A DNA stretch of 64,000 bases from Pseudomonadota bacterium. Its GTDB lineage: Bacteria; Bdellovibrionota; UBA1018. How positions within the stretch are numbered: the first letter of the stretch is position 1; the number at the start of each line of letters is the position of its first letter. The notes beneath the pieces are model-generated. The model ran no database searches. It saw nothing but the letters and a program-made list of their open reading frames with translations, and was not told the origin of the DNA. The stretch lies in NCBI GenBank assembly GCA_027485695.1, contig JAIXQO010000004.1, positions 194,408 to 258,407 of the forward strand, written 5' to 3'. The translations under genes and the position numbers were made by a program. Shown in pieces: positions 7,920-41,229 of this stretch.

Positions 7920-7949
7920 GGGTCACTCCTTGACCGGACTAGCCAGTTT

Positions 7950-11066: not shown

Positions 11067-11253
11067 AGAAGAGCCGATCCATCCTTGGAGGGTCAGATGA
11101 CTGGAGAAAACTGATGGACGATCACAGTCGAGTGACGACCCTGATCTCTCCCGCTCGGAATCTCCCTATCATCTGATGATCAAAACACTTCCGAGTTAAG
11201 AAAAGTTTACATGATTATGTCAACGGAGCAACTGCCGTAAGATTTTATTATCT

Positions 11254-12665: not shown

Positions 12666-12668
12666 AGA

Positions 12669-14364: not shown

Positions 14365-14370
14365 TCGATC

Positions 14371-15381: not shown

Positions 15382-15489
15382 GCTAATTTATTTAAATTAT
15401 TACTAAACAAATAATTGAATTCCGAAACAACTGTTATAGAATATTAATTAGATCGACACTAATAATCCGTGATCGATTAAGAAGGACGT

Positions 15490-16158: not shown

Positions 16159-16196
16159 GCCTGATCGATACTGCTTAGATCGTACAAAAGTATATA

Positions 16197-16231
16197 GCCC
16201 CCCAGTCTAGATTGGATTGGGGGGCTTTTTT
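16197..16231 (+). terminator. rho-independent terminator after pilA
   Basis: The stem gcccccca/tggggggc (8 bp, all G:C but one) with a 13-nt loop is followed by TTTTTT. Confidence 0.8.
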
Positions 16232-16246
16232 GTTCATAATCGTTTC

Positions 16247-17953
16247 ATGCTCTTATCGAAGGAAAAGAATTCGCCCTATAAGATCGCGCTATTCGCGGCA
16301 ATTCCGATCCTGACCTTGCTCTCCCAGGTGATCCCGCTGATTTCAGCAGATCCCCTCTTGGAATTCGACGACCTCATCCTTATTCGTTCCGTTCAATCCG
16401 AATCGGTCTTGTCGTACTTTCAAAAGCTTTTGTCGCTCAACGCGATCGACATTCAACCGGTCCGTGACCTCCTCATTTTGGGGGAAATCCGCTTCTCAAA
16501 AATTTTCTTTTCCCCGTTTCATCTCGTGAATGTTTTCCTCGTCGCGACCGCCTGCTTTTTTTGGTTTCGAATCACGAAGAAATGGGTGACCACCCAAGGA
16601 CATGCTTGGACCGCAATGACCTTGGCTCTCATTTGGGTCTTGAGTCATGGTGCCTGGGTATTTAGCTTGAGCTGGGTCGCCGCCCAGAAACACTGGCTCG
16701 CCCTCATCTTTTTGTTGTTGGCCATCGACTGCGCAAGACTCGAAACACATCAGCAGCAGCAGAGGCTCTCGGTTTCAAAGCTCTCGGTCTTCTTCGCTGT
16801 ACTGGGCATGCTTTCCCATCCGATTCTTTGCCTCGTGGGACTGCTCCCCTTCCTATTCTCTTGGTTCTCAAAGTCACGCCCCAAGCTAATCTCTCCGACA
16901 ACGACACTCGCATTGCTCTCACTTTTACTCCTCGGCCTGAACTACCACTACTATCAGTCGATCTATCCAGGCCTCGTTGGGTTCGCGAAGTTCCAACCTG
17001 CGTACGACTTCACATTCGTTTCGACCCTTCTGCTGCGATTCGGGCGATATTTCTTCAATCTGGTTTGCCCCGCATTCATTGCAGTCACCTACTCACCTGC
17101 CTCCTGGCAAAATATTGTCGGCATACCAATCGCCGTCGTGATGGGGTACGCACTCCTCAAGCTACTGCCCAGACTACAAGCATTGGTCGTCGGCGCACTC
17201 ATTTGTATTCCGTTTTTCGCGACGGCGCCCTTTCAGCAGGGTATATTCTTGTCCGATACTTATCTTTTGTTTCCAGTGGCGGTAGTGGGCTGGCTGTTGG
17301 CCCGCCTCGTAAATGAAGTTCCTCGTGCCGGATTCATCGCCGCCGTTTTGATCATCGTCAATCTAGCAACCTCATTCTCTATACCCGAGAGCTTCAAAAG
17401 CGATACCAACCTCTGGATACGCTCGTACCAAGTTGAACCGGATCACAACAGTTTGCTTTCAGTGATCTACGCACAACTTCAACGTGGGCTTCTGAATGAA
17501 GCGCGTTACAATTTGGAAATCGCACAAGAATGGATTCCCGAGAGCGCCCTTCTCAAAGACTACTGGTGCGACCTCCATCGACAAGACGTCCAGAAGCCAG
17601 CTCGAGAGCGCATTGAAAAACTGGAAACCCTGGTGAAATCCAGTGATTCCTACTCCTGCCGAGAGGCATTGATCATTTTGCTTCTCGCTGAAAAACGAGA
17701 CAAAGACGCGATCTCAATTGCAATGAACGTAGGTCGACTCAACGTCACAGACTCACGACACACGGCTGAGAATCTAAGCGCTCGCCTCTACATAGCCTGC
17801 ACAAACGAGAAGATCGAAAACTGCGAACTCATTAAAGAGCGGTGGGTTGACCTGAGCCGGAGAAGGATTCTCCCGTGGAACGAAGCCGTCTACCAAACTG
17901 CCCTTAAAAATATCACCGATGCCAAGATCCGCGACGCAATCAATCGAGAATAG
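16247..17953 (+). CDS. polytopic membrane protein with C-terminal TPR-like domain, paralog 1; GT-C-type glycosyltransferase or Wzy_C-like oligosaccharyltransferase (candidate pilin-modifying enzyme)
   Basis: ~11 TM segments. An early loop carries the DD motif LLEFDDLILIRS, and further conserved motifs are DIQPVRDLL, HLVN and HGAWVFSLSWVAAQKH. The C-terminal ~160 aa form helical repeats. The track start at 16217 is a TTG inside the terminator stem, so the ATG at 16247 is used. Confidence 0.5.
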   Translation: MLLSKEKNSPYKIALFAAIPILTLLSQVIPLISADPLLEFDDLILIRSVQSESVLSYFQKLLSLNAIDIQPVRDLLILGEIRFSKIFFSPFHLVNVFLVATACFFWFRITKKWVTTQGHAWTAMTLALIWVLSHGAWVFSLSWVAAQKHWLALIFLLLAIDCARLETHQQQQRLSVSKLSVFFAVLGMLSHPILCLVGLLPFLFSWFSKSRPKLISPTTTLALLSLLLLGLNYHYYQSIYPGLVGFAKFQPAYDFTFVSTLLLRFGRYFFNLVCPAFIAVTYSPASWQNIVGIPIAVVMGYALLKLLPRLQALVVGALICIPFFATAPFQQGIFLSDTYLLFPVAVVGWLLARLVNEVPRAGFIAAVLIIVNLATSFSIPESFKSDTNLWIRSYQVEPDHNSLLSVIYAQLQRGLLNEARYNLEIAQEWIPESALLKDYWCDLHRQDVQKPARERIEKLETLVKSSDSYSCREALIILLLAEKRDKDAISIAMNVGRLNVTDSRHTAENLSARLYIACTNEKIENCELIKERWVDLSRRRILPWNEAVYQTALKNITDAKIRDAINRE

Positions 17954-17956
17954 GCA

Positions 17957-19630
17957 ATGAACAATTATCTTAAAGCGAATATCGCACTGACTTTCGCTTC
18001 CGCTCTAATTTTCTTGGTCTGCTTCTGGCCGACGCTTCAATCGGACGTACTACTCGGCTACGACGATACGATCCTGATCCAACCTCTAAAAAATTTGTCG
18101 GCCCTCGACTATTGGAAGAACCTGATTGCGATGCGGATCTACGACGTTCAACCCATTCGCGACCTTCTTTTTATGGTCAATATCCGCCTCAGTGCACTCG
18201 GCTTACCTGCCTTTCACCTCGTCAACCTCTGCTTAGGCGTCGGAATTCTGGCGCTTAGTACACGGCTCATGAGTTTTTTCGCGTTCTCAAAGAGTTCAAT
18301 TTGCGCGGGATTAACATGGACGATCACTCACGGAGCTTGGGTTTGGAGCTTATCCTGGGTGTCCGCCCAGAAGCACCTGGGGGCGCTCTTCTGGTTGTTG
18401 GTCGCAGTATGGGTTTACGCGAGACGATCGTCGGAAAAACAGGAACTACGAGGCCGTGACTGGTGGATGATCGGGTTGGCCTATGCGCTCTCTTCGCTCT
18501 CCCATCCGATCTACTTACCTCTTGGACTCCTACCGCTCCTAGTCCGCCTCTTGAATCGCCGATCTATTCCTCAGTCATTCAAGCCAAGTGGATGGGTGGG
18601 TCCGCTCGCCCTTGCTGCAATCACGCTGACTTGCTTAGCGCTCAACGCCTACTACTACCTGAAAATCTACCCCTCCCAGAGCGAGGTCGCTAAATTTCTG
18701 TCACAGGAGAACACTATAGACGGACAACTCCTCCTTCAGGCTGGGAGGTACTTTTTCAATCTACTCTTACCGATCCAAGTCGCCGCACACTACTGGCCCG
18801 GATCCGCTGCCTCCTTGATCGGTATCCCTGTCGGCGTTGCGATGACCTGGACGCTCTTTAAGTTGGTCCCAAGAATGTGGGCGTCGATCGCATCGATGAT
18901 GATCGCACTACCTTTTCTGATGACCGCCCCGTTTCAAAAGAACGTATTTTTTTCAGATACCTACTTACTTCTCCCCGTACTGACGCTCTCAGTGCTTCTT
19001 ACCGCCTGCACTGAACGGTTTCCCCGATCGACTTGGGCGATTTGGATCATGAGCGCCGTGCAGCTCTATTTTTCCTATCCGATTCCTTCGAGTTTCACCT
19101 CCGACGAGGCACTCTGGACGAGATCCTACGAGGTGTCACCCAACCCCTCATCTCTCTTTGCACTGGTTTCCATACATCTCGAGCGAGGCAACCTGACTGA
19201 AGCCGGAACAAACCTCGATATCCTAGAGAAATGGATGCCAGAAAATCCACGCTATCCACGAAACCGTTGCATCTGGCTCAAAAAAACGGCTGATCGTGAT
19301 CCTTCTCGTCGTCTGCAAAACAAAAAATGGATGGAGGAACTCTACCGAACAAGCCAAGACTCCGTCTGTGCGCTTTTTCTCGTCGATTTGTACCAAGCGG
19401 AGGGAGCATGGTCACAGACCACCGATATTGCCTTGTCACTGACATCGCTCAACTCCGAAAATCAATGGGACGGCGAACGGCTCGCAGCAGGACTGACACA
19501 ATTATGCCAGCGCACGAATCGAACTGATTGCGCATCTGTGAGCGCCCATATTCGGTCACTCTGCACTCACCGGCCCAAGCCTTGGGACGAAAATGCCTAC
19601 CTCAAGAATTTAAGTGAGTTTCAAAAATAA
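17957..19630 (+). CDS. polytopic membrane protein with C-terminal TPR-like domain, paralog 2 of 16247..17953
   Basis: It shares collinear motifs with paralog 1: LLGYDDTILIQP, DVQPIRDLL, HLVN, HGAWVWSLSWVSAQKH, QAGRYFFNLLLP, SDTYLLLPV and WTRSYEVSPN. It starts 3 nt after the paralog 1 stop. Confidence 0.5.
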   Translation: MNNYLKANIALTFASALIFLVCFWPTLQSDVLLGYDDTILIQPLKNLSALDYWKNLIAMRIYDVQPIRDLLFMVNIRLSALGLPAFHLVNLCLGVGILALSTRLMSFFAFSKSSICAGLTWTITHGAWVWSLSWVSAQKHLGALFWLLVAVWVYARRSSEKQELRGRDWWMIGLAYALSSLSHPIYLPLGLLPLLVRLLNRRSIPQSFKPSGWVGPLALAAITLTCLALNAYYYLKIYPSQSEVAKFLSQENTIDGQLLLQAGRYFFNLLLPIQVAAHYWPGSAASLIGIPVGVAMTWTLFKLVPRMWASIASMMIALPFLMTAPFQKNVFFSDTYLLLPVLTLSVLLTACTERFPRSTWAIWIMSAVQLYFSYPIPSSFTSDEALWTRSYEVSPNPSSLFALVSIHLERGNLTEAGTNLDILEKWMPENPRYPRNRCIWLKKTADRDPSRRLQNKKWMEELYRTSQDSVCALFLVDLYQAEGAWSQTTDIALSLTSLNSENQWDGERLAAGLTQLCQRTNRTDCASVSAHIRSLCTHRPKPWDENAYLKNLSEFQK

Positions 19631-19697
19631 TCACGATCTCAAAAACTGATCTGATTTCCATTTCTTTCCAAACGGTTTCAACCGAAAATATAACGAT

Positions 19698-20690
19698 ATG
19701 CCCAACTGGCGGAAACCCACTGCACACCAGAATTTGGTTTTCATACTGATTTTTGCCCTGGGAGCCGCTTCCGGTGGTTCTTACACCTATTCTTTCTTTT
19801 CGCTTCAAAAAACCGAAGTCCGCAAGGTCTCTCCGCTTCTAGATCCAGCACTCGCCTACAGGAATTCTGGTGAATACCAACTTCCATTGGATTTCAGGCT
19901 CAAAGAAAGCGAGTCCTTGCTCCGCACGCGAATCCAACAGGAGATTGAGGACAACACGATTCAGGAAGCTTCGATTTACTATCGTAGCTTCAACAACGGA
20001 CCCTGGTTCGGCATCAACGAAGATGCAAGGTTCCTACCTGGCAGTCTCTTGAAACTCCCGCTGGCCATTGCACTATTCAAGCAATCGGAATCGGATCCAA
20101 ATCTCCTGGAACGACAGATTGCGTTCAATAACCCGGATTTACTTCCACTCTATAACTTGCAGTTCGCGGAACCCGCAGAACGCCTCGAGATCGGCCGTTC
20201 TTATAGCGTGAGGACACTGATTGAGCGCTCCCTCATATACTCTGATAACGTCGCTGCAAACTTACTTGAACGCACGCTCGGCGTGGAAGCCTGGGCTCGC
20301 CTCTCCAAGGATCTTTACGTTCCGATTGATCGCAACACCGCACACTCCCGGGGGCTCACGTCCAAGGAATACAGCACGTTCTTCCGCGTTCTTTACAACT
20401 CATCATACTTGAGCGAGACAAATTCAGAGTTTCTCCTCAATGTTTTGAGCAAATCCACGTTCATCGACGGGCTTCGAGCCATCGTTCCCGAAGGTACGAT
20501 TATCGCCCACAAATTCGGCGAGACCCTCTTCGGCGATAAAAAGAAGTTCGCCTACCTCAGTGATTGCGGGATTATCTACGGCAAGACCCAACCGCACATC
20601 GTTTGCGTTATGTTGCGTAGCGACTCTCGCAACAAAATGAATCGGGAGCTATTCATGCGATTATTCCGAGATCTTCCGATCATTTATTAA
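19698..20690 (+). CDS. membrane-anchored serine hydrolase with class A beta-lactamase / PBP-like fold
   Basis: N-terminal TM (LVFILIFALGAASGG). The active-site triad of motifs is S-x-x-K (PGSLLKLPLAIAL), SDN (LIYSDNVAANLL) and a K-x-G variant (AHKFGET). Confidence 0.5.
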   Translation: MPNWRKPTAHQNLVFILIFALGAASGGSYTYSFFSLQKTEVRKVSPLLDPALAYRNSGEYQLPLDFRLKESESLLRTRIQQEIEDNTIQEASIYYRSFNNGPWFGINEDARFLPGSLLKLPLAIALFKQSESDPNLLERQIAFNNPDLLPLYNLQFAEPAERLEIGRSYSVRTLIERSLIYSDNVAANLLERTLGVEAWARLSKDLYVPIDRNTAHSRGLTSKEYSTFFRVLYNSSYLSETNSEFLLNVLSKSTFIDGLRAIVPEGTIIAHKFGETLFGDKKKFAYLSDCGIIYGKTQPHIVCVMLRSDSRNKMNRELFMRLFRDLPIIY

Positions 20691-20747
20691 CCAAAGACCT
20701 CGCCTGCTGCCTCGACTCCGCAAGTCCATTCACCTTATTATAGAAAC

Positions 20748-23198
20748 ATGTTCACTCAGATCACTGTATTCGGTTGGGCTTGGGTTCTCTGGAAAACAAA
20801 CGGTTGGTACTCCCCGGGATACCTCTTCACGTTTCCGGCGCTCATCTTAACTGGGTATTGGGCGGATCGCAGATTCGGGGATCGCGTTCTCACGCCAAAG
20901 CAGAAAACGGTTTTCGCCCTCGCATTCTTCAGCCTCTTGGGAACGATTCGGCCTCAGCTTCTCTATCCTCAGTCATCCCTGTTTCTCGCCGCCATCCAAG
21001 CCGCATTCATCATGGTGCTGATCGTCGCCGCTTGGCTCGCCATACGCGACCAATGGAGGCACCAGCTCTCGATCTTACTATTTGCGGTGTCCGCTCTCGT
21101 CCTCGTTTTCGGAATCCTCTGCTCTCCCTATCCACTGATCGACGTATGGATCTACATTCAACAAGCGGTCGATGGAATTCAAAACGGGATCAATCCGTAC
21201 TCCATCGCTTTTCCGAGTGTCTACGCGGGCAAACCTCCTGCCGCTTTTCCGTATAGCCCAGTCACACTCCTGTATTTGACGCCTTTTCACGCAATACTCG
21301 GCGACGTTCGTTACGGCCTGGTCGCGGCATTGTTGATTTCGGGCCTACTCTGCCTAGGTACCAAATCGGACAAGTCTAGCAAGTACCTGTATACCAGCCT
21401 CATCCTGCTTTTCCCGTCGACTTTGAATGTCATTGAGCAAAGCTGGATCGATCCCATTAGCCTCATCCCTCTAGCGATGGCCATCCGGGGTCTCAAATCT
21501 AAGAAGAACTCCTGGTTCATCGCCGGAGTACTTTTACTCCCCGCAGTAAAACATTATAACTTCGCGTTCGTACCATTTCTGCTGCTCGCACATCCATCAT
21601 TCAGAAACTGGAAGAAAGCGCTCGCGCTCTTCGCAGGATCGGTGGCGTTCTTTGTTACTCAGTTTATTGCATTTACTCCGTCCAGCAAAACCTCGACTGG
21701 ATTCTTGAAGGAGATGCTATTCCCCACATTCGATCTTACAGAAATTCGCCACTTTTCACTCGGTGACTGGTTAATCGCCCATCAGATTCCCATTTCCGCC
21801 AACGAGGGACTCCTGATTTCTCTCCTCATTGGAGTCACATCCGTGGCCGTATTCATTTGGAAAAAGCGCCATTTACCCAGTGATTCAATCCTTTGGGGCA
21901 GCTATGCATTGATGGTTTTTTTCCTCCTCTATCCAAATACGGCGCTCAACTACGTTTGGTTCGCAGTCATCGCTTGGTGGATGAACGAGCTTTCTCGTCC
22001 CGAAGAAAGCACTGCGCCGCTCGTGAACGGTCTCGCCCCGATCGATGCTTTGTATTTCGTCACCCGCATCTTCCTGATCTTCGGTATGGAGCCCTATATT
22101 TCTGACGTGGGTCTCTATTTCAAATATTTTAGTGAGTGGCATTTCGGCGGACTCATGCCTTACCGAGACTTCTCGTTCGAATACCCACCTTTCGCATGGA
22201 TCCCGATCGTTTTTCCCGCTTCCTTGTTCTCGATCAACTCTGAGTCTCTTTTGGCCTATCGATTTTGTTTCATGAGTCTCATTGTTGCGGCTGATTTTTC
22301 CATTTTCCGATTCTTCAGACGGATCTCCGAACCCAAAGCTGCCTATTTCTACGTATTCTCAATCCTCGCTATGGCTCACCTCGTGCTCGATCGGATTGAT
22401 TTGATCGTCGGTTTTTTTCTGATTCTTCCTTTGTTCCCATTCGCGCGTACGAATCGATTTTTCTCCCAAGACATCATCATCGGCATGGGCGGGCTTTTTA
22501 AGATCTCCCCAATGATTGTGAGCGGGCTGCCGGAGCTTTTGAAAAAACGAGGCATCTTCCGAGCTACTCTCGGGGCGTTGGTCTCGGTCTCACTCTTCGT
22601 CATCGGCATGGCGTGGATGCTCGACTTCTCCGACGGCAAACCAACGTTATTCAACTATCACTCTCTTCGTGGCATCCAGGTCGAATCACTCATCGGAAAC
22701 GTCGCTCTTTTCCTCGCAACCATCTCGCCAGAATTGGGAATATCCGTTGGTAACAACTATGGAGCACAACATTTAAGCGGCTTTCCAGATTCGGTTGTTC
22801 TATTCGGAAAACTGCTTTCAATCGTTTCTGTTTTTGCGACTTTTGGGTGGGTCGTACGCAACGCGCTCGTGCATAAGAAGGTGGAACTGGCTCAGGCGAC
22901 TTTCCTCATGATTCTCACATTCGTGACCTTCAACACTGTATTGTCACCGCAATTCATCCTTTGGCTGATACCCGTCGGAATATTTGCAAGTATCGAACAG
23001 AAACGAAAATATGATCTCTATACGCTTTTTTTAATATCGGTGATCACCGGAGTCCATTTTCATTTCTACTGGAGCTACGTTCAAAAAGAGATCCCATTCC
23101 TCTTGAACCTGATGCTCCGTAATTTGCTACTCGTAGGACTCTGGGCAGTGAATATCTACCGGATCTCTCTAAACAAAGATAAATCGATGACTCGTTGA
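20748..23198 (+). CDS. 816-aa integral membrane protein (more than 20 predicted TM segments); possibly a duplicated GT-C/DUF2029-like mannosyltransferase-type module
   Basis: Hydrophobic almost throughout, with Trp/Tyr/Pro-rich loop motifs (WIYIQQAVDGIQNGINPYS, FNTVLSPQFILWLIP). The call is tentative. Confidence 0.4.
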   Translation: MFTQITVFGWAWVLWKTNGWYSPGYLFTFPALILTGYWADRRFGDRVLTPKQKTVFALAFFSLLGTIRPQLLYPQSSLFLAAIQAAFIMVLIVAAWLAIRDQWRHQLSILLFAVSALVLVFGILCSPYPLIDVWIYIQQAVDGIQNGINPYSIAFPSVYAGKPPAAFPYSPVTLLYLTPFHAILGDVRYGLVAALLISGLLCLGTKSDKSSKYLYTSLILLFPSTLNVIEQSWIDPISLIPLAMAIRGLKSKKNSWFIAGVLLLPAVKHYNFAFVPFLLLAHPSFRNWKKALALFAGSVAFFVTQFIAFTPSSKTSTGFLKEMLFPTFDLTEIRHFSLGDWLIAHQIPISANEGLLISLLIGVTSVAVFIWKKRHLPSDSILWGSYALMVFFLLYPNTALNYVWFAVIAWWMNELSRPEESTAPLVNGLAPIDALYFVTRIFLIFGMEPYISDVGLYFKYFSEWHFGGLMPYRDFSFEYPPFAWIPIVFPASLFSINSESLLAYRFCFMSLIVAADFSIFRFFRRISEPKAAYFYVFSILAMAHLVLDRIDLIVGFFLILPLFPFARTNRFFSQDIIIGMGGLFKISPMIVSGLPELLKKRGIFRATLGALVSVSLFVIGMAWMLDFSDGKPTLFNYHSLRGIQVESLIGNVALFLATISPELGISVGNNYGAQHLSGFPDSVVLFGKLLSIVSVFATFGWVVRNALVHKKVELAQATFLMILTFVTFNTVLSPQFILWLIPVGIFASIEQKRKYDLYTLFLISVITGVHFHFYWSYVQKEIPFLLNLMLRNLLLVGLWAVNIYRISLNKDKSMTR

Positions 23199-25129
23199 TC
23201 CTTGGCTTCGAATACAGTCATTGCCGGATGTGCAGAAATCCAAGAGTCGATCCAGTAGCTATAGTAGGTTCTCACGCCGATATACCGGTCATCCAAGAGG
23301 TATCGCACCTTCTCTGAGATTAACCGACGAATGATGACATCTGGGGACAACGACTCCAAGTCACCGACTGGTACGGGGTTTGAATCCAGCCAGGACTTAA
23401 CGGGCAATCCAGAGATGTAGTAGAGTTGATTGTCGCCGGTGGTGAGAATTTTTTCTCCCGGACGCACGTTCATCCTGAGCCAGGCCTTAGATGAACCGGC
23501 CCGAAAATCATCTCTTATTGCTAAATGCCAATCTGATATTTTTGAGTCTGTGAGCGCATGAAAAACAGGCGCGTCTCCATAGTTACCCGGTCGAATGGAG
23601 TCCCCGTAGGCGACCAGGGATAGAAATATACACGAAAGCACCGATACTTGAATTCTCGAACTGAGTGCTTGAATCAGAATGGATATTCCAATCACGGTTA
23701 ACCAACCGATCAAAGCTATCTCCGCTCCTAAGTGTCGGTCGGTCAGCCTGGCTTGTTGCAAGAGGAGTAATATGAATACGGCGACCAAAATCCCGGACAA
23801 CCCCATCCAAATACGTAGTGCTGGAGATTCTTTTTTCTTCCTCAGTATCACGCCAACTGCGACACCAATCAAAACCAGGAGAATCCAGCTCTCACTTGAT
23901 ATGATCGATGCTAGTCGTTCTAAACGTTGACTGAATTCCAATGAGTCTTTGGGCAAGTAGTAGCGGACTAGAGTCAACGCCCCATCTGTCATGCCTCGAC
24001 TGGGGAATAGATCGTCCATGATTGGAAAAATCGGATTCTGCGTGAAGATCACGTTTCTCACCGCCAGCGGAAGCGCAGCTAAGCCAAAAAAACCAATTGA
24101 TACTCCCCACTCTCGAACACTCGATTTTCGTATCCAGAGTGCTAACGCAACAATCGCAATCGCCAGTGGCCCATTAGTGAACTTAGAAACGCCCGCGACA
24201 CCGAGGATAAATGCGCCCACACGCGGTCTATCAAAAACCAAAGACAACCCGCCGACTAGGAAAAATAGAGACCCCCAGTCATTCTTGGCTAGGACAGTGA
24301 CCCATAATAGATCGCGGACTGAAATAGCGGCTAAAGCCGCAACCAGGGCAATGAGATCGTTTGCTTGGAACAGTCGTCTTGCTGCGTAGTAAGCGGCGAA
24401 ATAAGTTCCCATAAAACCTAAAACCGTGTGAAGCAGTTGTGCAAAAATCTGACCTTCGATCAGTCCGCGTCCAACTTCACCACTCAGCAGCCGCATGCCA
24501 AACAGGATGAGATACTCCCACTGTCCGGCATGAAAAATGACGATATCTCCTGGCGGAAGATATACCGAGCCATGATCCATCCAAAGTCTAGGAGCATAGA
24601 GGTGATAAATGAGAGGATCTGATGCCGCCCAGGGGCCTAGCGACTTAAACACTCGAAAAAGGAAAAAAACTGCCAAGTACAGAAGTATCCCTCGTTCGAT
24701 CCAAGACGCCAATTTCAGGGAACTAATGATTGGCCCGAGTTTTCTGGGTCGTACAAGTGCAGAGCCCATGCAAACACAGATCGCGAACAAGAGTCGAGAC
24801 TCTGGACCAATAGATCCAAAACCTAGGAACAATACAAAAAATGAGATGAAAGCCGCCCCCAAGATGAGGGAAACAAGCCAGTGTTCTTTGGCCACGCGAA
24901 ATAGAATCCGCGATAGACCGTCGCCCCACCCTACCAAGCTGAGTAGAAAAGTCGCAAAGACCGCAATGACCGATAGAATCGCAACAAAGTCGAGTTGGGC
25001 GTCCGGATTTCTCCCATCACCTAACACCAACCAACTCACCCAAAGAATGAATGAAGAACTGATCAGAGTGGGGAAATGAATCAATGAACCGCGAGAATCG
25101 TCAGTCCGAGCTAGATTCATCCTCGTCAC
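23156..25129 (-). CDS. 657-aa polytopic membrane protein with C-terminal periplasmic domain, ArnT/PMT-like (GT-C) glycosyltransferase candidate
   Basis: ~12-13 TM helices are followed by a ~130-aa soluble C-terminal domain. The gene converges on 20748..23198 with a 43-nt overlap, and its start overlaps the sigma54 activator stop by 29 nt. Confidence 0.4.
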   Translation of the reverse strand: MTRMNLARTDDSRGSLIHFPTLISSSFILWVSWLVLGDGRNPDAQLDFVAILSVIAVFATFLLSLVGWGDGLSRILFRVAKEHWLVSLILGAAFISFFVLFLGFGSIGPESRLLFAICVCMGSALVRPRKLGPIISSLKLASWIERGILLYLAVFFLFRVFKSLGPWAASDPLIYHLYAPRLWMDHGSVYLPPGDIVIFHAGQWEYLILFGMRLLSGEVGRGLIEGQIFAQLLHTVLGFMGTYFAAYYAARRLFQANDLIALVAALAAISVRDLLWVTVLAKNDWGSLFFLVGGLSLVFDRPRVGAFILGVAGVSKFTNGPLAIAIVALALWIRKSSVREWGVSIGFFGLAALPLAVRNVIFTQNPIFPIMDDLFPSRGMTDGALTLVRYYLPKDSLEFSQRLERLASIISSESWILLVLIGVAVGVILRKKKESPALRIWMGLSGILVAVFILLLLQQARLTDRHLGAEIALIGWLTVIGISILIQALSSRIQVSVLSCIFLSLVAYGDSIRPGNYGDAPVFHALTDSKISDWHLAIRDDFRAGSSKAWLRMNVRPGEKILTTGDNQLYYISGLPVKSWLDSNPVPVGDLESLSPDVIIRRLISEKVRYLLDDRYIGVRTYYSYWIDSWISAHPAMTVFEAKDQRVIDLSLFREIR

Positions 25130-26195
25130 CCATCCCTAACTTGGCTAGACGGTAGCGAATACTACGAAACGTGATTCCGAGAACTTCTGCGGCGCGCTTC
25201 TTGACGCCTCCAGTATGCTCCAGAGCTTTTTCGATATATTGCTTCTCGACAGCTGCGAGAATCGCATCAAGTTCGATCGGTCCCTTCGTGAAGTCCGGTG
25301 CGGGCAGCTCAATCGCACTCAAAGGTGGCGCGCCTGGTGCTCGCGGATGTGAGTCGCGAAAAACTTTCTCGACCTCATCAGTTCTAGACTGCTGAGACGA
25401 AGAGGAAGTGGATTGAGCGCTCGTTGCCTTCGCGGAAATGATCGCTTGCGGCAGACTCGACAATTCAATCAACGTTTTTGATTCTAAGGTAACCGCACGC
25501 TCGATCACGTTCTCGAGTTCCCGAATGTTACCGGGCCATCCGTAACGAGTCATCGCCTCCATCGCATCGTCGGAGAAAGCTTGGATTTCTTTGCCCTGAC
25601 GCTCACCAAATCGCTTCAGAAATTCATTGGCAAGCATCGGAATGTCACTGCCCCGCTCACGCAGAGGCGGAGTTCGAATCAAGATGACGTTTAGTCTGTA
25701 ATATAGATCTTCGCGGAATCTGCCTTCACGAATCATCAACTCGAGGTCACGGTTCGTAGCGGAGATGATCCGAACATCCACCTTGAGATCGTCGTTTGCG
25801 CCCACCCGGCGTACCACCCGCTCTTGCAACGCACGAAGAAGCTTGACCTGCATGGAGAGAGGCAACTCGCCGACTTCGTCCAGGAATAGCGTTCCGCCAT
25901 TTGCGGCCTCAAATAGTCCAGGCTTGTCCGAAACGGCTCCTGTGAAGCTACCCTTCTTATGCCCGAACATTTCGCTCTCGATTAGGTTCTCCGGAATAGC
26001 GCCACAGTTTACGGGAATGAAAGGTTTGCCTTTCATCGGTCCCGTGTCGTGAATCATTCGAGCAACGAGTTCTTTGCCGGTGCCGCTCTCACCGATGATC
26101 AATACGTTCGTTTTGTTACCAGACACCTTGGAAATCAGGGAGATCAGGCTCTTGACCGGCGCAGAATCCCCCAGAATTTTGCGACTCTTCTCCAC
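25101..26195 (-). CDS. sigma-54-dependent transcriptional activator lacking a receiver or sensor domain (PilR-like AAA+ plus Fis-type HTH only)
   Basis: Walker A GESGTGKE, GSFTGA (a GAFTGA variant), the EDLYYRLNV R-finger region, and a C-terminal HTH (KRAAEVLGITFRSIRYRLAKLG) after a Ser/Gln-rich linker. The ORF is bounded upstream by the pilC stop, so there is no room for a REC domain. Confidence 0.85.
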   Translation of the reverse strand: MEKSRKILGDSAPVKSLISLISKVSGNKTNVLIIGESGTGKELVARMIHDTGPMKGKPFIPVNCGAIPENLIESEMFGHKKGSFTGAVSDKPGLFEAANGGTLFLDEVGELPLSMQVKLLRALQERVVRRVGANDDLKVDVRIISATNRDLELMIREGRFREDLYYRLNVILIRTPPLRERGSDIPMLANEFLKRFGERQGKEIQAFSDDAMEAMTRYGWPGNIRELENVIERAVTLESKTLIELSSLPQAIISAKATSAQSTSSSSQQSRTDEVEKVFRDSHPRAPGAPPLSAIELPAPDFTKGPIELDAILAAVEKQYIEKALEHTGGVKKRAAEVLGITFRSIRYRLAKLGMGDEDESSSD

Positions 26196-27406
26196 TATTG
26201 AATCCCCTCGCCCATTTTGAAGATCGGAAGGTACATAGCAATCATGAGGCCGCCTACCGTGCCACCCAAGAATACGAGGATGACTGGTTCGATCAGCTTA
26301 GTGAGGCCGTTCACAAGAATTTCAACTTCGGCTTCATAGAAATCGGCGACTTTCTCTAACATTCGGTCCAGCTGACCCGTGCTCTCGCCGACGGCCATCA
26401 TCTGAACGGCCATTTTTGGAAACACGTCGATTTGGCCGAATACGTATGCGAGGCTCTTACCTTGCTCAATTTCCGGTCGAAGAATCGAAACCGCATCTTC
26501 TAAGACTGCGTTGTCGATCGTCTGTTTGCAGATGTCGATCGCATCGAGCAAGTTCACCCCGGAATTCAAAAGCGTCGCCAGCGTCCGAGTAAAACGGGCA
26601 GTACCGCCTTTTTGCATAATCGGTCCAAAGATCGGTACTTTGAAAAACATTTTGTCCCGCAAGACGCGCCCTTCGGGACTCTGAAAGAATTTGGTCAGGA
26701 CGAAAGCCGCGAACGCTATCGCGCCAATCAAGACCGTGAAGTGATCTCGGATAAAATGGGAGACATCGATCACGAACTGGGTCGGAGCCGGGAGAGCTTG
26801 GCCGTTTTGAGAAAGAAGTTCTTCGAACTTCGGGATGACGAACGTCAGCATACCGATGATCACCGCGACACCGACGCTGACCACGATCACCGGATACATC
26901 ATGGCCGATTTCAGTAATTTTTTCAGGCGGTCGGCGTCTTCGAGATAGTTGGTGAGGCGCCGCAAGATCGCATCCAGAGCACCTGAACTCTCGCCGGCTC
27001 GGACGAGCGCAAGATAGAGCTTCGGAAATGCCTTTGGGTAAGCACTCATGGCCTCCCAGAGAAATGTCCCTTCGCTGACTTTTTGCTTAATGCCCATACA
27101 AAGAGTCTTAAACGCGCCGGATCCCCCTTGATCCGTCAGAATGTCGAGCGCTTGAGTCAGCGGAATACCGGAACCGATGAGTACCTGCATCTGTCGCGTG
27201 AAAATGAGAACTTCTTCTGCGGAAACGTTGGTAGATTTAAATACTTCTCCCAAATCTTTTTGGGCAAGGCTCTGAACAGAAACCTTCAGCGGACGGACGC
27301 CTTGACCACGCAATAAGATCCTCAACTCCCCTTCGGAAGCTGCCGTGACCTTACCTTTGACGCGGTTTCCTTGGCGATCGACGCCATCATACATGTAATC
27401 CGGCAT
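26195..27406 (-). CDS. pilC: type IV pilus inner-membrane platform protein PilC (GspF family)
   Basis: 403 aa with two GspF-like repeats and 3 TM segments. It lies between pilT and the activator. Confidence 0.9.
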   Translation of the reverse strand: MPDYMYDGVDRQGNRVKGKVTAASEGELRILLRGQGVRPLKVSVQSLAQKDLGEVFKSTNVSAEEVLIFTRQMQVLIGSGIPLTQALDILTDQGGSGAFKTLCMGIKQKVSEGTFLWEAMSAYPKAFPKLYLALVRAGESSGALDAILRRLTNYLEDADRLKKLLKSAMMYPVIVVSVGVAVIIGMLTFVIPKFEELLSQNGQALPAPTQFVIDVSHFIRDHFTVLIGAIAFAAFVLTKFFQSPEGRVLRDKMFFKVPIFGPIMQKGGTARFTRTLATLLNSGVNLLDAIDICKQTIDNAVLEDAVSILRPEIEQGKSLAYVFGQIDVFPKMAVQMMAVGESTGQLDRMLEKVADFYEAEVEILVNGLTKLIEPVILVFLGGTVGGLMIAMYLPIFKMGEGIQ

Positions 27407-27423
27407 CTCTGGTCCTCACATCC

Positions 27424-28497
27424 TCACTTCAGATTCTGAAGCATACGCATCAGCTCTTCGGGCATATAACTATATTCCATCGCGGCTTCGGGAGAAATGG
27501 TGCCGGACTTCACGTATCCGATCAACGCCTGATTGAGCGTCTGCATTCCTGTTTCGCCTTGGCCTGTTTGCATGGCGGAATAGATTTGGTGAATTTTCTC
27601 TTCGCGAATGAGGTTTCGAATGGCCATGCTCGGCACCAGAACTTCGCAGGCCATTGCTCGGCCGCGTCCACCGATCTTCGGCACCAGGCACTGAGAGACG
27701 ATCGCCTGCAACGTAAAACTCAGCAACTGACGGACCTGCCCTTGTTGGTGAGGCGGAAACACGTTGATCACGCGGTTGACGGATTGAATCGCGCTGTTGG
27801 TGTGAAGCGTGCCGAAAACCAAGTGACCGGTTTCGGCCATAGTCAGCGCCATCTCGATCGTATCCAAATCCCGAAGCTCTCCGACCAGAATATAGTCCGG
27901 GTCTTGGCGAAGAATTTGTCGAAGCGCGTTCTTAAAACTCTTGGTATCTACGCCCACTTCACGCTGGTTCACCACGCAGTTTTTGTGTGGGTGGACGAAT
28001 TCGATCGGGTCCTCGATCGTGATAATATGTCCAAACTCGTCCCGATTGAGCGCATCGAGCATCGCGGCGAGCGTCGTCGACTTACCACTACCCGTCGGGC
28101 CAGTGACCAGCACTAACCCGTTCGGTCGCTTGATCACTTCTTTCAAAATATTGGGAACGCCGATCTCATTCCACTCTGGAATCTTGACCGGAATTCGACG
28201 GAAAACTGCGGCAACACTACCGCGCTGGAGAAATATGTTACCCCGGAAACGAGCGACGTCCTTAATCCCGAACGAAAAATCGAGTTCCAGGTTCCGTTCG
28301 AACTCCGCTTTCTGAGAATCCGTTAAAACCTGATAGCACAGCTCCTTGGTATCTTGCGGAGTCAGTGCATCGGTTTTGACCTTAACCATGTTCCCGGAGA
28401 TACGGAACTCAGGCGGTACGCCGACCGTAACGTGCAAGTCGGACGCGTTCTGGTCGACCATGGTTTTCAAAAGTGCTGGAAGACTGATCTTCGCCAT
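27424..28497 (-). CDS. pilT: twitching motility retraction ATPase PilT
   Basis: 357 aa with Walker A GPTGSGKST, Asp and His boxes, and a PilT-type length with no N-terminal GSPII domain. Confidence 0.9.
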   Translation of the reverse strand: MAKISLPALLKTMVDQNASDLHVTVGVPPEFRISGNMVKVKTDALTPQDTKELCYQVLTDSQKAEFERNLELDFSFGIKDVARFRGNIFLQRGSVAAVFRRIPVKIPEWNEIGVPNILKEVIKRPNGLVLVTGPTGSGKSTTLAAMLDALNRDEFGHIITIEDPIEFVHPHKNCVVNQREVGVDTKSFKNALRQILRQDPDYILVGELRDLDTIEMALTMAETGHLVFGTLHTNSAIQSVNRVINVFPPHQQGQVRQLLSFTLQAIVSQCLVPKIGGRGRAMACEVLVPSMAIRNLIREEKIHQIYSAMQTGQGETGMQTLNQALIGYVKSGTISPEAAMEYSYMPEELMRMLQNLK

Positions 28498-28503
28498 TTC
28501 TCG

Positions 28504-30225
28504 TTACTCCATTGTCATCGAAATTGCTTCTTGAAGGCTTGTATGTCCCTCGATCACTTTCGTAATCGCGGATTGCCGGAGCGACTTCATACCATTGGCG
28601 ACTGCAGCCCTGCGAATTTCGATGATCGTTTGACCTCGAAGCACCATTTCTTTTAACTCTTGCGTAAAATCAAATACCTCGTAAATCGCGAGACGGCCCT
28701 TGTAACCGGTGTTCGCACATGCTGGACAACCCTTGCCCACAAACATTTTAACTGCTCCCAGCTGTTCTGGTGGCACGCCGAGTTCCTTTAGTTTCTCTAG
28801 TGGGGCTGGCTGTTCTATCCGGCAACGTCCGCAGATTTTGCGAAGCAATCGCTGAGCTACGATGGTGTTAACCGAAGAGGTCACCAGAAATGGCTCGACT
28901 CCCATATTCATCAAACGCGTAATTGAGCTTGGAGCATCGTTCGTGTGCAATGTGGACAAAACCAAGTGACCCGTGAGCGCGGCCTGAATCGAAACTTCGG
29001 CGGTTTCATAGTCACGAATCTCACCCACCAGAATGATATCCGGGTCTTGGCGAAGAAGGGATCTGAGAACGGACGCGAAGTTCATTCCAACGTCTTTGTT
29101 GATCTGAGTCTGATTGATCCCTTCCAAGTTATATTCGACCGGGTCTTCGGCGGTTGAAATGTTGTCCGCAGTCTTATTGAGATCCGCGAGCGCGGAATAC
29201 AGCGTAGTGGTCTTACCGCTACCGGTCGGTCCAGTGACGAGCACCATTCCGTTTGGAGAATAAATTCCTTTTTTAAAGACCTCGAGCTGCTGAGTCTCGA
29301 ACCCAAGTTTGGTGAGGTCGAGATTTAGGCTGCCCTGACTCAAAATACGCATCACAACTTTTTCACCGAATAGAGTCGGGAGCGAGTTCACCCGGAAGTC
29401 GACGGTCTGTCCGCCGACCTTGATTTTGATACGGCCGTCTTGTGGAATTCGGCTTTCGGAGATATCCATCCGGGACATGATTTTGAGACGTGCGACGACA
29501 GTACGTTTCAGTTCCGGTGGAACTTCGGCGATCTCGTGCAATGCACCGTCTACCCGCATGCGAACGCGGAATCGGCGTTCATAGGGCTCTACGTGAATAT
29601 CGGAAGCACCCCGACGAACCGCTTCACCCAAAATACCGTTTACGAAGTTAACGACTGCCTCGCCCGTCGTATCTCCAGCTCCCCCGCTGTCGAGGGAGAC
29701 GTCGACGTCATGGACATCGAAACTACTGAGTCCGATCGATTTATTCGCTTCGTTCTTGAGTTCGTCCCGCTGAAGTACGTTCAGGGAACTCGCGATCACG
29801 GCGGACGCACTGAAATATTTGCTCAGCGCTTCTTCAAACGCACTAAAAGTTGTAACGACTGCTTCGATGTTTTTCTTCGTGACGAACTTGACCTTGTCGG
29901 CCATCGCCAGTCTAGTCGGATCGCAAACGGCAACGACGATCACATCATTTTTAGACTGAATAGGAATCAACTGGAGATCGCGCACTATGTCCGTAGGAAT
30001 GAGCGAGATGACTTTTTGATCGAGCGTGAATTTTGAGAGGTTGATGCTCGCCAGATTGAATCGCCGACTGAGGTATTCGACGAGCTTCGCCTCGCTCATT
30101 TTTTTTGTTTGAACGAGCACCTTGACCGGACTACCGTTCGGACCTGCGTCCGCCACCGCTTGGTCGAACTGGCCTTGTGAAATTTTGTTGTCCCGAAGGA
30201 GTATTTCTGCGAGCTGCCTAGACAT
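28504..30225 (-). CDS. pilB: type IV pilus assembly (extension) ATPase PilB (GspE family)
   Basis: 573 aa with an N-terminal GSPII domain, Walker A GPTGSGKTT and the tetra-Cys zinc site (CGRC...CPAC). Confidence 0.9.
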   Translation of the reverse strand: MSRQLAEILLRDNKISQGQFDQAVADAGPNGSPVKVLVQTKKMSEAKLVEYLSRRFNLASINLSKFTLDQKVISLIPTDIVRDLQLIPIQSKNDVIVVAVCDPTRLAMADKVKFVTKKNIEAVVTTFSAFEEALSKYFSASAVIASSLNVLQRDELKNEANKSIGLSSFDVHDVDVSLDSGGAGDTTGEAVVNFVNGILGEAVRRGASDIHVEPYERRFRVRMRVDGALHEIAEVPPELKRTVVARLKIMSRMDISESRIPQDGRIKIKVGGQTVDFRVNSLPTLFGEKVVMRILSQGSLNLDLTKLGFETQQLEVFKKGIYSPNGMVLVTGPTGSGKTTTLYSALADLNKTADNISTAEDPVEYNLEGINQTQINKDVGMNFASVLRSLLRQDPDIILVGEIRDYETAEVSIQAALTGHLVLSTLHTNDAPSSITRLMNMGVEPFLVTSSVNTIVAQRLLRKICGRCRIEQPAPLEKLKELGVPPEQLGAVKMFVGKGCPACANTGYKGRLAIYEVFDFTQELKEMVLRGQTIIEIRRAAVANGMKSLRQSAITKVIEGHTSLQEAISMTME

Positions 30226-30402
30226 AAATAGAGTTTCATTTTCTCACAGTGACAATTTATGTCTATGGTTACTGGTATTATTTTTAAATATTAATTATGA
30301 ATCAAAATTTTGACTGATCTTTAAGTACCGCAAAGAGGGAGTTCAATTTTTGACAACGGGATTATTAACGGTACCGGCCCATCAAGACGAATAATCCAAG
30401 AG

Positions 30403-30657
30403 ATGATCAGGGCTAATAGTCGCATCATTTTGATATTGATAGCCGCCTTACCGTGCTCGGTAAGTGCTGAATCGCCTTGCGATCACATTCCATCTACGCT
30501 GAGCGTGCTAGGCAAACTCTCGTTGGAGGATGCGCGTCCCGTCCAGCTCGGCATGATTAAGATGTATCCGGACCCAACCCAACGCACAGATTACACGTCA
30601 AGAATGAGCCGTTACGTAGCTACAGGCTACGAGAACCTCATGAGAAAACGCTCCTAG
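30403..30657 (+). CDS. small secreted hypothetical protein
   Basis: 84 aa with a signal peptide MIRANSRIILILIAALPCSVSA|E. There are no other motifs. Confidence 0.3.
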   Translation: MIRANSRIILILIAALPCSVSAESPCDHIPSTLSVLGKLSLEDARPVQLGMIKMYPDPTQRTDYTSRMSRYVATGYENLMRKRS

Positions 30658-30675
30658 TCCAAACTGATTGAGCAC

Positions 30676-31386: not shown

Positions 31387-31391
31387 CGCAT

Positions 31392-41215: not shown

Positions 41216-41229
41216 TGATCTCCTCGACC

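What the first reader, a model, noticed from the sequence alone, without database searches (positions are those of the whole stretch)
25101..26195. PilR-position sigma54 activator with no receiver domain, and no pilS in the locus
The ORF begins directly with the AAA+ sigma54-interaction domain (GESGTGKE … GSFTGA). It cannot extend upstream because the pilC stop abuts it. Canonical PilR proteins carry an N-terminal REC domain phosphorylated by PilS. A REC-less enhancer-binding protein (PspF/HrpS-like) implies constitutive activity, or control by an anti-activator rather than by a two-component kinase. In addition, no canonical -24/-12 (GG-N10-GC) element is visible upstream of pilA, so its real target may lie elsewhere.
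Basis: partly seen in the sequence, partly recalled or inferred. Interest (0 to 1): 0.55.

Follow-up and report, generated by a model that had tools for sequence, protein, structure and literature searches.

The report
PilR activator without receiver domain
The gene after pilC is a real, conserved copy of the pilus regulator PilR that has lost its phosphorylation (receiver) domain and its partner kinase PilS in a whole branch of Bdellovibrio-like bacteria, so it cannot be switched by a two-component kinase, and what it controls is unknown.

Summary
ORF 25101-26195 (-) encodes a 364-aa sigma54 activator made only of an AAA+ domain, a lid and a Fis-type HTH. Its GTG start overlaps the pilC stop. 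No pilS, receiver domain or histidine kinase is detectable in the 64 kb.

It is not an artefact. All 120 listed homologue clusters (328-420 aa) lack a receiver domain. In all 15 related loci inspected, pilC abuts the gene. Non-synonymous divergence is low while synonymous sites are saturated.

In a tree, the receiver-less proteins form one clade. It is sister to the canonical Bdellovibrionales PilR (463-507 aa), which is preceded by pilS. The DNA-recognition helix is nearly identical. It is therefore a PilR orthologue that lost PilS, the receiver and the linker once.

No -24/-12 promoter lies in any intergenic region of the window or of 13 related loci. The pilA genes instead carry sigma70-type -35/-10 boxes.

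Most likely it is an input-less activator made together with PilB, PilT and PilC, acting on an unidentified sigma54 promoter elsewhere. Control by a protein acting in trans is not excluded.

This is a new variant of a known kind and is moderately interesting.

The parts
25101..26195 (-). Receiver-less PilR orthologue (364 aa): AAA+ sigma54-interaction domain, lid, variable Ser-rich linker, Fis-type HTH
   Evidence: Pfam. Alignment and invariant motifs. Tree. Purifying selection.
26070..26093 (-). Walker A motif GESGTGKE (residues 35-42)
   Evidence: Invariant in the alignment.
25935..25952 (-). Sigma54-contact loop GSFTGA (residues 82-87), a variant of GAFTGA shared with canonical Bdellovibrio PilR
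   Evidence: G82, F84, T85, G86 and A87 are invariant. All 21 clade members read carry GSFTGA.
25137..25259 (-). HTH_8 DNA-binding domain. The recognition helix ITFRSIRYRLAKLG is close to ISFRSMRYRIEKYN of B. bacteriovorus PilR.
26193..26197 (-). Junction TAGTG: the pilC stop and the activator GTG start overlap by one base, with a GAGGGG Shine-Dalgarno sequence upstream. pilS, receiver and linker would sit here in canonical relatives.
   Evidence: In L031 the canonical relative has pilS at 7977-9545 and pilR at 9581-10987.
26195..27406 (-). pilC (T2SSF, 403 aa)
27424..28497 (-). pilT (T2SSE, 357 aa)
28504..30225 (-). pilB (MshEN + T2SSE, 573 aa), first gene of the apparent pilB-pilT-pilC-pilR operon
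   Evidence: Gene spacings of 6, 17 and -1 nt.
30238..30305 (-). Two sigma70-like promoter matches upstream of pilB. No promoter-like site lies between pilB and the activator.
15415..15442 (+). Sigma70-type promoter match TTGAAT-16-TAGAAT, 47 nt before the pilA ATG. No -24/-12 element lies here.
15490..16158 (+). pilA (major pilin, Myxococcus-type)
   Evidence: NCBIfam. Pfam N_methyl and Pilin_PilA.
16196..16226 (+). Strong intrinsic terminator after pilA (14-bp stem plus a T run)
5994..15288 (-). Rest of the pilus supercluster: pilQ, pilP, pilO, pilN, pilM, a 205-aa ORF, pilD, an ABC permease and ABC ATPase (pilI and pilH-like), and a 305-aa pilG-position gene
   Evidence: Synteny with L084 and L085.
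16217..25129 (.). Variable island between pilA and the activator: four large membrane proteins without Pfam family and a beta-lactamase-like protein. Not part of the regulator; shown for context.

Best explanation
The gene is an orthologue of pilR. In the common ancestor of a deep, mostly uncultured Bdellovibrionota clade it lost the upstream kinase gene pilS and its own receiver domain and coiled-coil linker. What remains is AAA+ domain, lid and HTH, fused directly behind pilC.

The catalytic and sigma54-contact motifs are intact and under purifying selection, so it most likely still assembles into a ring, hydrolyses ATP and opens sigma54 promoters. It does so without any phosphorylation input. 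Its activity would then be set by how much of it is made, through co-transcription and translational coupling with pilB-pilT-pilC.

In this clade pilA is read from a sigma70-type promoter, and no -24/-12 promoter lies in the pilus cluster. The target is therefore one or more unidentified sigma54 promoters elsewhere in the genome.

Shown here: architecture, orthology, clade-wide conservation, loss of pilS and the receiver, and absence of local -24/-12 sites. Inferred: constitutive assembly, operon coupling, and a target located elsewhere.
For: - **Architecture:** Sigma54_activat at residues 7-173, lid and HTH_8, with no receiver domain.
- **Breadth:** all 120 listed homologue clusters (58-100% identity, 328-420 aa) lack PF00072.
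- **Synteny:** in 15 of 15 related loci pilC abuts the gene within -4 to +27 nt.
- **Canonical relatives:** about 75 Bdellovibrionales loci have a roughly 2-kb gap after pilC. In the B. bacteriovorus locus read in full (L031) it holds a 522-aa PilS and the receiver end of a 468-aa PilR; across the loci the PilR ORFs are 463-507 aa.
- **Tree:** in a neighbour-joining tree of the AAA+ domain, the receiver-less proteins form one clade. It is sister to canonical PilR, and other activators from the same loci fall outside.
- **Boundary:** the receiver-less N-terminus starts exactly where the canonical linker ends. Walker A, GSFTGA, Walker B and the conserved arginines R161 and R167 (the arginine-finger region, assigned from memory) are invariant, and the HTH recognition helix is nearly identical to Bdellovibrio PilR.
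- **Selection:** dN is 0.16-0.25 in the AAA+ domain and 0.09-0.26 in the HTH region, with dS saturated; where it could be computed, omega is about 0.1.
- **No relic:** no pilS or receiver remnant appears in the window or in ten of the related loci (E > 1).
- **Receiver type:** canonical Bdellovibrio PilR aligns across receiver, linker and AAA+ with Aquifex NtrC1 (4l4u, 1ny5; E 1e-111, with only a 2-residue gap in the linker). From the literature, the unphosphorylated NtrC1 receiver represses ring assembly and its removal activates the protein (Lee 2003 and Doucleff 2005, cited in PMC7175178).
- **Sigma54 in the clade:** a clade member (L089, Bdellovibrionota FG-2) also encodes a canonical kinase plus receiver-containing activator with GAFTGA.
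- **No local -24/-12 site:**
- **pilA promoters:** sigma70-type boxes matching 9-10 of 12 positions occur in 7 of 9 clade loci.
- **Positive control:** L048 has canonical pilS and pilR, with TGGCACATGTCCTGCT about 53 nt before pilA.
Against: - No target promoter was found, so sigma54-dependent activation is not demonstrated.
- rpoN was not seen in the window or in any fetched locus, and whole genomes of the clade could not be scanned.
- Constitutive activity rests on analogy with NtrC1. If the ancestral PilR was of the NtrC type, in which the phosphorylated receiver is needed for assembly, a bare truncation would have been inactive and compensatory changes must be assumed.
- Most pilin genes next to canonical pilS-pilR in the sister clade also lack a clear -24/-12 site. 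A switch of pilA to sigma70 is therefore not specific to the receiver-less clade, and the ancestral wiring is uncertain.
- The promoter calls are consensus matches, not mapped transcription starts.
- The tree is a single neighbour-joining tree without bootstrap support.
Confidence: 0.55

Rival explanations
1. The receiver-less activator is not constitutive. It is held in check in trans, as PspF is by PspA or HrpS by HrpV, by a partner protein or a small ligand. The partner could be a component of the pilus machine that replaces PilS as the sensor.
For: All well-studied activators with this domain layout are controlled by protein binding in trans (group 4 in Table 1 of PMC7175178). The gene is always fused to the pilB-pilT-pilC operon. 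An Arg or Lys two residues before the ILGES motif at the extreme N-terminus is conserved across the clade but not in canonical PilR, which has Gln there.
Against: No conserved candidate partner gene exists. The downstream neighbour differs between loci: membrane protein, GT22, pilA, pilG-like gene, sulfatase or HD-domain protein. No PspA-like or HrpV-like domain appears in the window ORFs scanned. The FleQ-type c-di-GMP site is not supported: the post-Walker A Arg-Asn pair reads Arg-Met here (the motif was recalled from memory).
Confidence: 0.25
2. The protein no longer works with sigma54. It acts as a plain DNA-binding regulator, either a repressor or a sigma70-dependent activator, of the pilus genes. 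This would resemble the activator-like proteins TyrR, VpsR or Rhodobacter NtrC.
For: No -24/-12 site lies anywhere in the pilus cluster. pilA has sigma70-type boxes. The HTH is strongly conserved.
Against: The GSFTGA loop, Walker A and B and the arginine fingers are invariant across the clade. From general knowledge, proteins that gave up sigma54 have lost GAFTGA. No repeated PilR-box-like motif was found near pilA.
Confidence: 0.08
3. It is not a PilR descendant. It is an unrelated receiver-less activator (PspF-like) that was inserted behind pilC.
For: It has the same domain layout as PspF, and it matches the PspF model end to end (TIGR02974, profile positions 1-335 of 336).
Against: The PspF score of 290.7 bits is far below the 443.55-bit cut-off. 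The clade is sister to canonical PilR, and other activators of the same genomes are outgroups. It shares the GSFTGA variant and the recognition helix with Bdellovibrio PilR but not with the second activator of L089. It occupies the pilR slot of the Myxococcus-type cluster ribF-pilB-pilT-pilC-[pilS-pilR]-pilA-pilGHI-pilD-pilMNOPQ (PMC6060248).
Confidence: 0.05
4. It is an artefact or a decaying remnant: a frameshift, misassembly or wrong start hides a receiver domain, or the gene is a pseudogene.
For: None beyond the unusual layout and the GTG start.
Against: The same layout occurs in 15 independent assemblies and 120 protein clusters. A complete pilC ends at the start codon, and an in-frame stop lies 33 codons upstream. 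No receiver or pilS remnant is detected in any frame. Purifying selection is strong.
Confidence: 0.02

Closest known systems
PilR of the PilS-PilR two-component system (Bdellovibrio bacteriovorus, Myxococcus xanthus, Geobacter, Pseudomonas aeruginosa)
   Same: It is 53% identical to B. bacteriovorus PilR over the whole AAA+ to HTH region. It shares the GSFTGA loop variant and a near-identical recognition helix. It occupies the same slot after pilC in a Myxococcus-type pilus supercluster, and its clade is sister to canonical PilR in the tree.
   Different: It has no receiver domain, no linker, no phospho-acceptor Asp and no adjacent pilS. pilA has no -24/-12 promoter. It therefore cannot be a two-component response regulator, although public annotation (JGI) names its relatives as one.
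Group 4 enhancer-binding proteins without a regulatory domain (PspF, HrpR/HrpS)
   Same: The domain layout is the same: AAA+ plus HTH only, with the Pfam domain starting within a few residues of the N-terminus (PMC7175178).
   Different: It is not related by descent, scoring below the PspF family cut-off and grouping with PilR. No PspA-like or HrpV-like negative regulator is encoded nearby, and it is not next to a regulated sigma54 operon.
Aquifex aeolicus NtrC1 and its receiver-less construct NtrC1C (1NY5, 1NY6)
   Same: The canonical sister PilR aligns with NtrC1 through receiver, linker and AAA+. The window protein starts at the position where the NtrC1 linker ends, so it is a natural counterpart of the engineered receiver-less, constitutively assembling NtrC1C (literature knowledge).
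   Different: This truncation is natural, fixed across a clade and retains the HTH. Its constitutive activity has not been measured.
Neisseria pilE regulation (Nps/Npa with RpoN in commensals, RpoD in pathogens)
   Same: It is a precedent for pilin transcription moving from a sigma54 plus PilR-like activator to a sigma70 promoter within one lineage (PMC6528607; PMC6755734, listed).
   Different: That literature describes loss of use of the sigma54 pathway, not a conserved, truncated activator that is kept under selection.

Membership tests
Bacterial enhancer-binding protein (sigma54 activator, AAA+) | Sigma54-interaction AAA+ domain with Walker A and Walker B | tested here: met
   PF00158 E 2.4e-71, full-length match. 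GESGTGKE and DE106-107 are invariant.
Bacterial enhancer-binding protein (sigma54 activator, AAA+) | GAFTGA loop that contacts sigma54 | tested here: met
   GSFTGA at residues 82-87. F84 and T85 are invariant across the clade and in canonical PilR.
Bacterial enhancer-binding protein (sigma54 activator, AAA+) | C-terminal DNA-binding HTH | tested here: met
   PF02954 at residues 313-353, E 1.1e-15.
Bacterial enhancer-binding protein (sigma54 activator, AAA+) | A sigma54 (-24/-12) target promoter and rpoN in the genome | tested here: inconclusive
   No convincing site in the 64-kb window or in 13 related loci. rpoN is absent from the fetched DNA. Whole genomes could not be scanned. A second activator with GAFTGA in L089 suggests sigma54 is present in the clade.
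PilR (response regulator of PilS-PilR) | Orthology: closest relatives are PilR proteins, and the gene lies in the pilus cluster after pilC | tested here: met
   Sister clade to canonical PilR. 53% identity, shared GSFTGA and recognition helix. Synteny.
PilR (response regulator of PilS-PilR) | N-terminal receiver domain with phospho-acceptor Asp | tested here: not met
   No PF00072. The ORF cannot be extended. No receiver-like sequence in any frame.
PilR (response regulator of PilS-PilR) | Cognate PilS histidine kinase encoded next to it | tested here: not met
   pilC abuts the gene. tblastn with PilS gives E 1.1 in the window and nothing in related loci. Presence elsewhere in the genome was not testable.
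PilR (response regulator of PilS-PilR) | Activates a sigma54 promoter of the major pilin gene | tested here: not met
   The best -24/-12 score within 220 nt upstream of pilA in nine clade loci is 4.0 or less; extending to 300 nt adds two non-conserved sites of 9.3-9.8. The control L048 scores 14.9. Sigma70-type boxes are present instead. This rests on sequence only; no transcript mapping exists.
PspF / HrpS type (group 4 activators) | No regulatory domain | tested here: met
PspF / HrpS type (group 4 activators) | Family membership by sequence | tested here: not met
   TIGR02974 scores 290.7 bits against a cut-off of 443.55, and PRK11608 scores 243 against 529. The protein groups with PilR.
PspF / HrpS type (group 4 activators) | Negative regulator acting in trans, encoded in the regulated operon | tested here: inconclusive
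   No conserved neighbour other than pilB, pilT and pilC, and no PspA or HrpV domain in the window ORFs. A distant partner cannot be excluded.
NtrC1/DctD-type control (receiver represses assembly) in the ancestor | Short coiled-coil linker between receiver and AAA+, with activation on removal of the receiver | tested here: inconclusive
   Canonical sister PilR aligns with NtrC1 through the linker with a 2-residue gap. The functional consequence is inferred from the literature and was not tested.

The most novel reading that the evidence does not exclude
A whole clade of Bdellovibrionota has disconnected the PilR core from both its sensor (PilS plus receiver) and its classical target (pilA). 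It nevertheless keeps the core under strong selection and welded to pilB-pilT-pilC. The core may have been co-opted as a dosage-controlled or pilus-machine-controlled sigma54 activator of a different, non-pilin regulon. In that case pilus-operon expression, or a pilus component acting in trans, would replace phosphorylation as the input.
Probability: 0.3. Interest if true: 0.6.

Novelty: new variant of a known kind. Interest (0 to 1): 0.4.

Why it matters
PilS-PilR is the textbook circuit that matches pilin synthesis to pilin stock in the membrane. Here a deep lineage removed the sensing half and still kept the ATPase and DNA-binding half under selection. That lineage is related to predatory bacteria, which need type IV pili to attack prey.

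This is a natural experiment on three points:
- what a receiver domain does in this activator family (repression or activation);
- how regulators are rewired after losing their input;
- what PilR controls besides pilin.

It also has a practical side. Automatic annotation labels these proteins as two-component response regulator PilR, which is wrong for this clade and would mislead regulon and signalling inventories.

Tried and rejected
- **Longer ORF or frameshift.** The upstream frame was translated. A stop lies 33 codons upstream and pilC is complete. Rejected.
- **Hidden pilS or receiver remnant.** tblastn against the window and ten related loci found nothing.
- **Sigma54 promoters.** I ran a simple pattern, a weight matrix over the whole window and all loci, and an intergenic, orientation-aware scan. 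Only coding-region hits came up. Several are artefacts of conserved peptides: PilB IVAQRLL, PilT AMACEVL and, on the antisense strand, PilC AMYLPIF.
- **PilR-box-like palindrome.** TGTCA-N6-16-TGACA, taken from the L048 upstream region, has no match in the window.
- **rpoN.** This is uninformative because whole genomes were not available.
- **FleQ-like c-di-GMP site.** It was checked by eye on the alignment and is not supported.
- **Second kinase and activator pair in L089 as a relocated PilS-PilR.** Rejected. It is 41% identical, has GAFTGA and a different HTH, and its kinase is a CHASE2 type only 24% identical to PilS.
- **Rfam and tRNA scans of the window.** Both were empty.
- **Literature.** Three searches found no description of a receiver-less PilR.
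Full report
**What is there**

The ORF at 25101-26195 on the minus strand encodes 364 aa. Pfam finds a full-length Sigma54_activat domain at residues 7-173 (E 2.4e-71), an AAA lid at 179-263 and a Fis-type HTH_8 at 313-353. It finds no receiver domain. NCBIfam matches many activator families through the AAA+ core, but every score is below its cut-off. PspF scores 290.7 bits against a cut-off of 443.55.

The GTG start shares one base with the TAG stop of a complete pilC (26195-27406). It is preceded by GAGGGG. In the activator's frame a stop lies 33 codons upstream and no other start codon lies between. pilT (27424-28497) and pilB (28504-30225) precede pilC, with gaps of 17 and 6 nt. The only sigma70-like promoter matches in 22900-30800 lie just upstream of pilB. 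The four genes therefore look like one operon with translational coupling at the last junction. This is inference.

**Wider context**

The window carries a Myxococcus-type pilus supercluster:
- pilQ, pilP, pilO, pilN and pilM at 5994-11066;
- pilD, an ABC permease, an ABC ATPase and a pilG-position gene up to 15288;
- pilA at 15490-16158;
- a 9-kb island of large membrane proteins;
- the activator, then pilC, pilT and pilB;
- a 1.2-kb insert, then ribF.

This matches the published organisation ribF-pilB-pilT-pilC-pilS-pilR-pilA-pilGHI-pilD...pilMNOPQ of Cystobacterineae, Bdellovibrionales and Desulfuromonadales (PMC6060248). The activator sits exactly in the pilR slot, and the pilS slot is empty.

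tblastn with B. bacteriovorus PilS and with the PilR receiver segment finds nothing in the window (E 1.1 and 2.0). No kinase or receiver domain appears among the ORFs scanned.

**Not an artefact**

The exact protein exists in NCBI on a 581-kb contig. The 120 best homologue clusters (58-100% identity, 328-420 aa) all lack PF00072. They come from MAGs labelled Bdellovibrionota, Oligoflexia, Bdellovibrionales or Bacteriovoracaceae, and JGI names many of them "two-component response regulator PilR".

I inspected 15 related loci: L001-L005 from species-representative genomes and L081-L089 from metagenome and NCBI contigs. In every one, pilC is followed within -4 to +27 nt by a 345-370-aa activator with the same three Pfam domains.

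Against six relatives, non-synonymous divergence is 0.16-0.25 in the AAA+ and lid region and 0.09-0.26 in the HTH region. Synonymous sites are saturated. The inter-domain linker is free to vary, with 23-30% identity. The gene is functional.

**What it descends from**

About 75 loci from Bdellovibrio and Pseudobdellovibrionaceae match at 50-56% identity. They all show a gap of roughly 2 kb between pilC and the AAA+ match. In B. bacteriovorus (L031) that gap holds a 522-aa membrane histidine kinase (pilS, 7977-9545) and the receiver plus linker of a 468-aa PilR (9581-10987). Extracted full ORFs are 463-507 aa in this group and 354-363 aa in the close group.

A neighbour-joining tree of the AAA+ domain puts all receiver-less proteins in one clade. 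That clade is sister to the canonical PilR clade. Other activators encoded in the same loci fall outside both.

The alignment shows that the receiver-less proteins begin where the canonical linker ends...KKELVKEYSFQNMIGNSPAM against M-EKSRKILGDSAPV. Walker A, Walker B and the conserved arginines R161 and R167 (the arginine-finger region, assigned from memory) are invariant. Both groups share the GSFTGA variant and a nearly identical recognition helix (ITFRSIRYRLAKLG against ISFRSMRYRIEKYN). A second, canonical activator in L089 differs, with GAFTGA and IPKNTLLRKIRKFA.

The simplest history is a single deletion of pilS, receiver and linker at the base of this clade.

**Promoters**

A weight matrix for TGGCACG-N4-TTGCW (maximum 18.6) gives 13.3 as the best window score, inside the activator gene on the wrong strand. 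All other scores of 8 or more are intragenic or lack the -12 GC. An orientation-aware scan of every intergenic region of the window and eight related loci finds nothing convincing, and four further loci give the same result.

Upstream of pilA in nine clade loci the best score within 220 nt is 4.0 or less. Seven of the nine show TTGnnn-16/17/18-TAnnnT boxes matching 9-10 of 12 positions. In the window this is TTGAAT-16-TAGAAT at 15415-15442.

The method does detect real sites. In L048, which has canonical pilS-pilR, TGGCACATGTCCTGCT lies about 53 nt before the pilA ATG. L021 has a divergent pair scoring 17.0 next to another activator.

One caveat matters. Most pilin genes beside canonical pilS-pilR in the sister clade also lack a clear -24/-12 site. 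Sigma70-type pilin promoters may therefore be widespread in the phylum and are not a peculiarity of the receiver-less clade.

**How it most likely works**

The sigma54-contact loop and the ATPase motifs are kept, so the protein should still act on sigma54 RNA polymerase. A canonical kinase and activator pair with GAFTGA in a clade member (L089) argues that the sigma54 system exists in the clade.

Without a receiver domain the protein cannot take a phosphoryl signal. Canonical Bdellovibrio PilR aligns over receiver, linker and AAA+ with Aquifex NtrC1 (E 1e-111, with a 2-residue gap in the linker). According to the literature cited in PMC7175178, the unphosphorylated NtrC1 receiver and its coiled-coil linker hold the ATPase in an inactive dimer, and removing them gives a constitutively assembling protein.

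On that analogy the natural truncation would give an always-competent activator. Its level would follow pilB-pilT-pilC expression. This step is inference.

The target is unknown. It is not in the 64 kb or within 10 kb of the gene in relatives.

**Rivals**

- **Control in trans** (0.25), as for PspF and HrpS (group 4 in PMC7175178). It cannot be excluded, but no conserved partner gene exists beside pilB, pilT and pilC.
- **A sigma54-independent role** (0.08). This is unlikely given the invariant GSFTGA.
- **Independent recruitment of a PspF-like gene** (0.05). The tree and the shared motifs contradict it.
- **Artefact or pseudogene** (0.02). Refuted.

**Comparison with what is known**

By descent the protein is a PilR. 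By architecture it is a group 4 activator. It fails three defining features of the PilS-PilR response regulator: the receiver domain, the adjacent PilS, and a sigma54 promoter at pilA.

Published comparisons report PilS and PilR as present in B. bacteriovorus HD100 and absent in Peredibacter and in Bacteriovorax marinus SJ (PMC13147790; PMC6060248). None of three literature searches turned up a receiver-less PilR.

Neisseria offers a precedent for pilin promoters moving between sigma54 and sigma70 (PMC6528607).

**Verdict**

This is a new variant of a known kind, of moderate interest (0.4). The main open point is the target regulon, and whole-genome scans of the clade and simple biochemistry could settle it.

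Noticed in passing
window 16217-25129: A roughly 9-kb island lies between pilA and the activator. It holds four large polytopic membrane proteins (578, 557, 816 and 657 aa) with no Pfam family, plus a beta-lactamase-like protein (19698-20690). Relatives carry different cargo at the same place: GT22, radical SAM and GT2 in L081 and L082, a sulfatase in L086, and nothing in L083 and L085. It may be a variable pilin-modification island.
   Followed up: partly
window 30226-31391: A 1.2-kb insert lies between pilB and ribF. It has an 84-aa ORF with a signal peptide (30403-30657) and a 236-aa ORF (30676-31386), neither with a family match. Relatives have only 42-353 nt here, and in L086 a small peroxiredoxin gene as well.
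   Followed up: no
window 26237-26252 (-); L014, L028, L048, L054, L077 near the pilC 3' end: The conserved PilC C-terminal peptide AMYLPIF is encoded by a sequence that reads as a sigma54-like TGGCAnnTACATTGC (on the antisense strand in most loci). These are recurrent false-positive promoter hits. PilB IVAQRLL and PilT AMACEVL codons do the same on the sense strand.
   Followed up: yes
L029 18108-19975; L034 17370-19239 (Bdellovibrio sp. HCB117 and B. bacteriovorus s4): These Bdellovibrio genomes carry another receiver-less activator (327 aa) about 8 kb downstream of canonical pilR. TGGCATCCTTCCTGCT lies 12 nt before a 90-aa ORF nearby. This may be a separate group 4-type system.
   Followed up: no
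L073, L075, L078, L079: In a basal subclade, receiver-containing PilR-like genes are not linked to pilB, pilT or pilC. Each carries a sigma54 promoter 63-135 nt upstream of itself (for example TGGTATGGATGTTGCT), which suggests autoregulation.
   Followed up: no
L006, L011, L019, L057, L061, L064 (canonical pilS-pilR loci): Pilin genes next to canonical pilS-pilR mostly lack a recognisable -24/-12 site, and L057 and L061 show sigma70-like boxes ending in TAGAAT. Only L048 has a clear site, and L024 a possible one (CGGCAC-N5-TTGAA). What PilR targets in Bdellovibrionota in general is therefore unclear.
   Followed up: partly
L089 15835-19038 (Bdellovibrionota bacterium FG-2): A CHASE2 histidine kinase and a canonical receiver-AAA+-HTH activator (GAFTGA) lie 5 kb from the receiver-less PilR, close to ribF. 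It is a distinct two-component system, not PilS-PilR.
   Followed up: partly
Homologue list: JGI annotation names many of these receiver-less proteins "two-component system response regulator PilR (NtrC family)". This is a systematic misannotation. A few clusters are attributed to Cryobacterium, Methylotenera or Streptomyces MAGs, most likely through binning contamination.
   Followed up: no
window 32416-42246: Next to the pilus cluster lie a type III glutamine synthetase-sized ORF (768 aa, assigned by synteny) and ORFs in the positions of the BatD and VWA genes of relatives, plus a MoxR AAA protein confirmed by Pfam (41230-42246). This block is syntenic with most relatives (L081, L083, L085, L086).
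   Followed up: no
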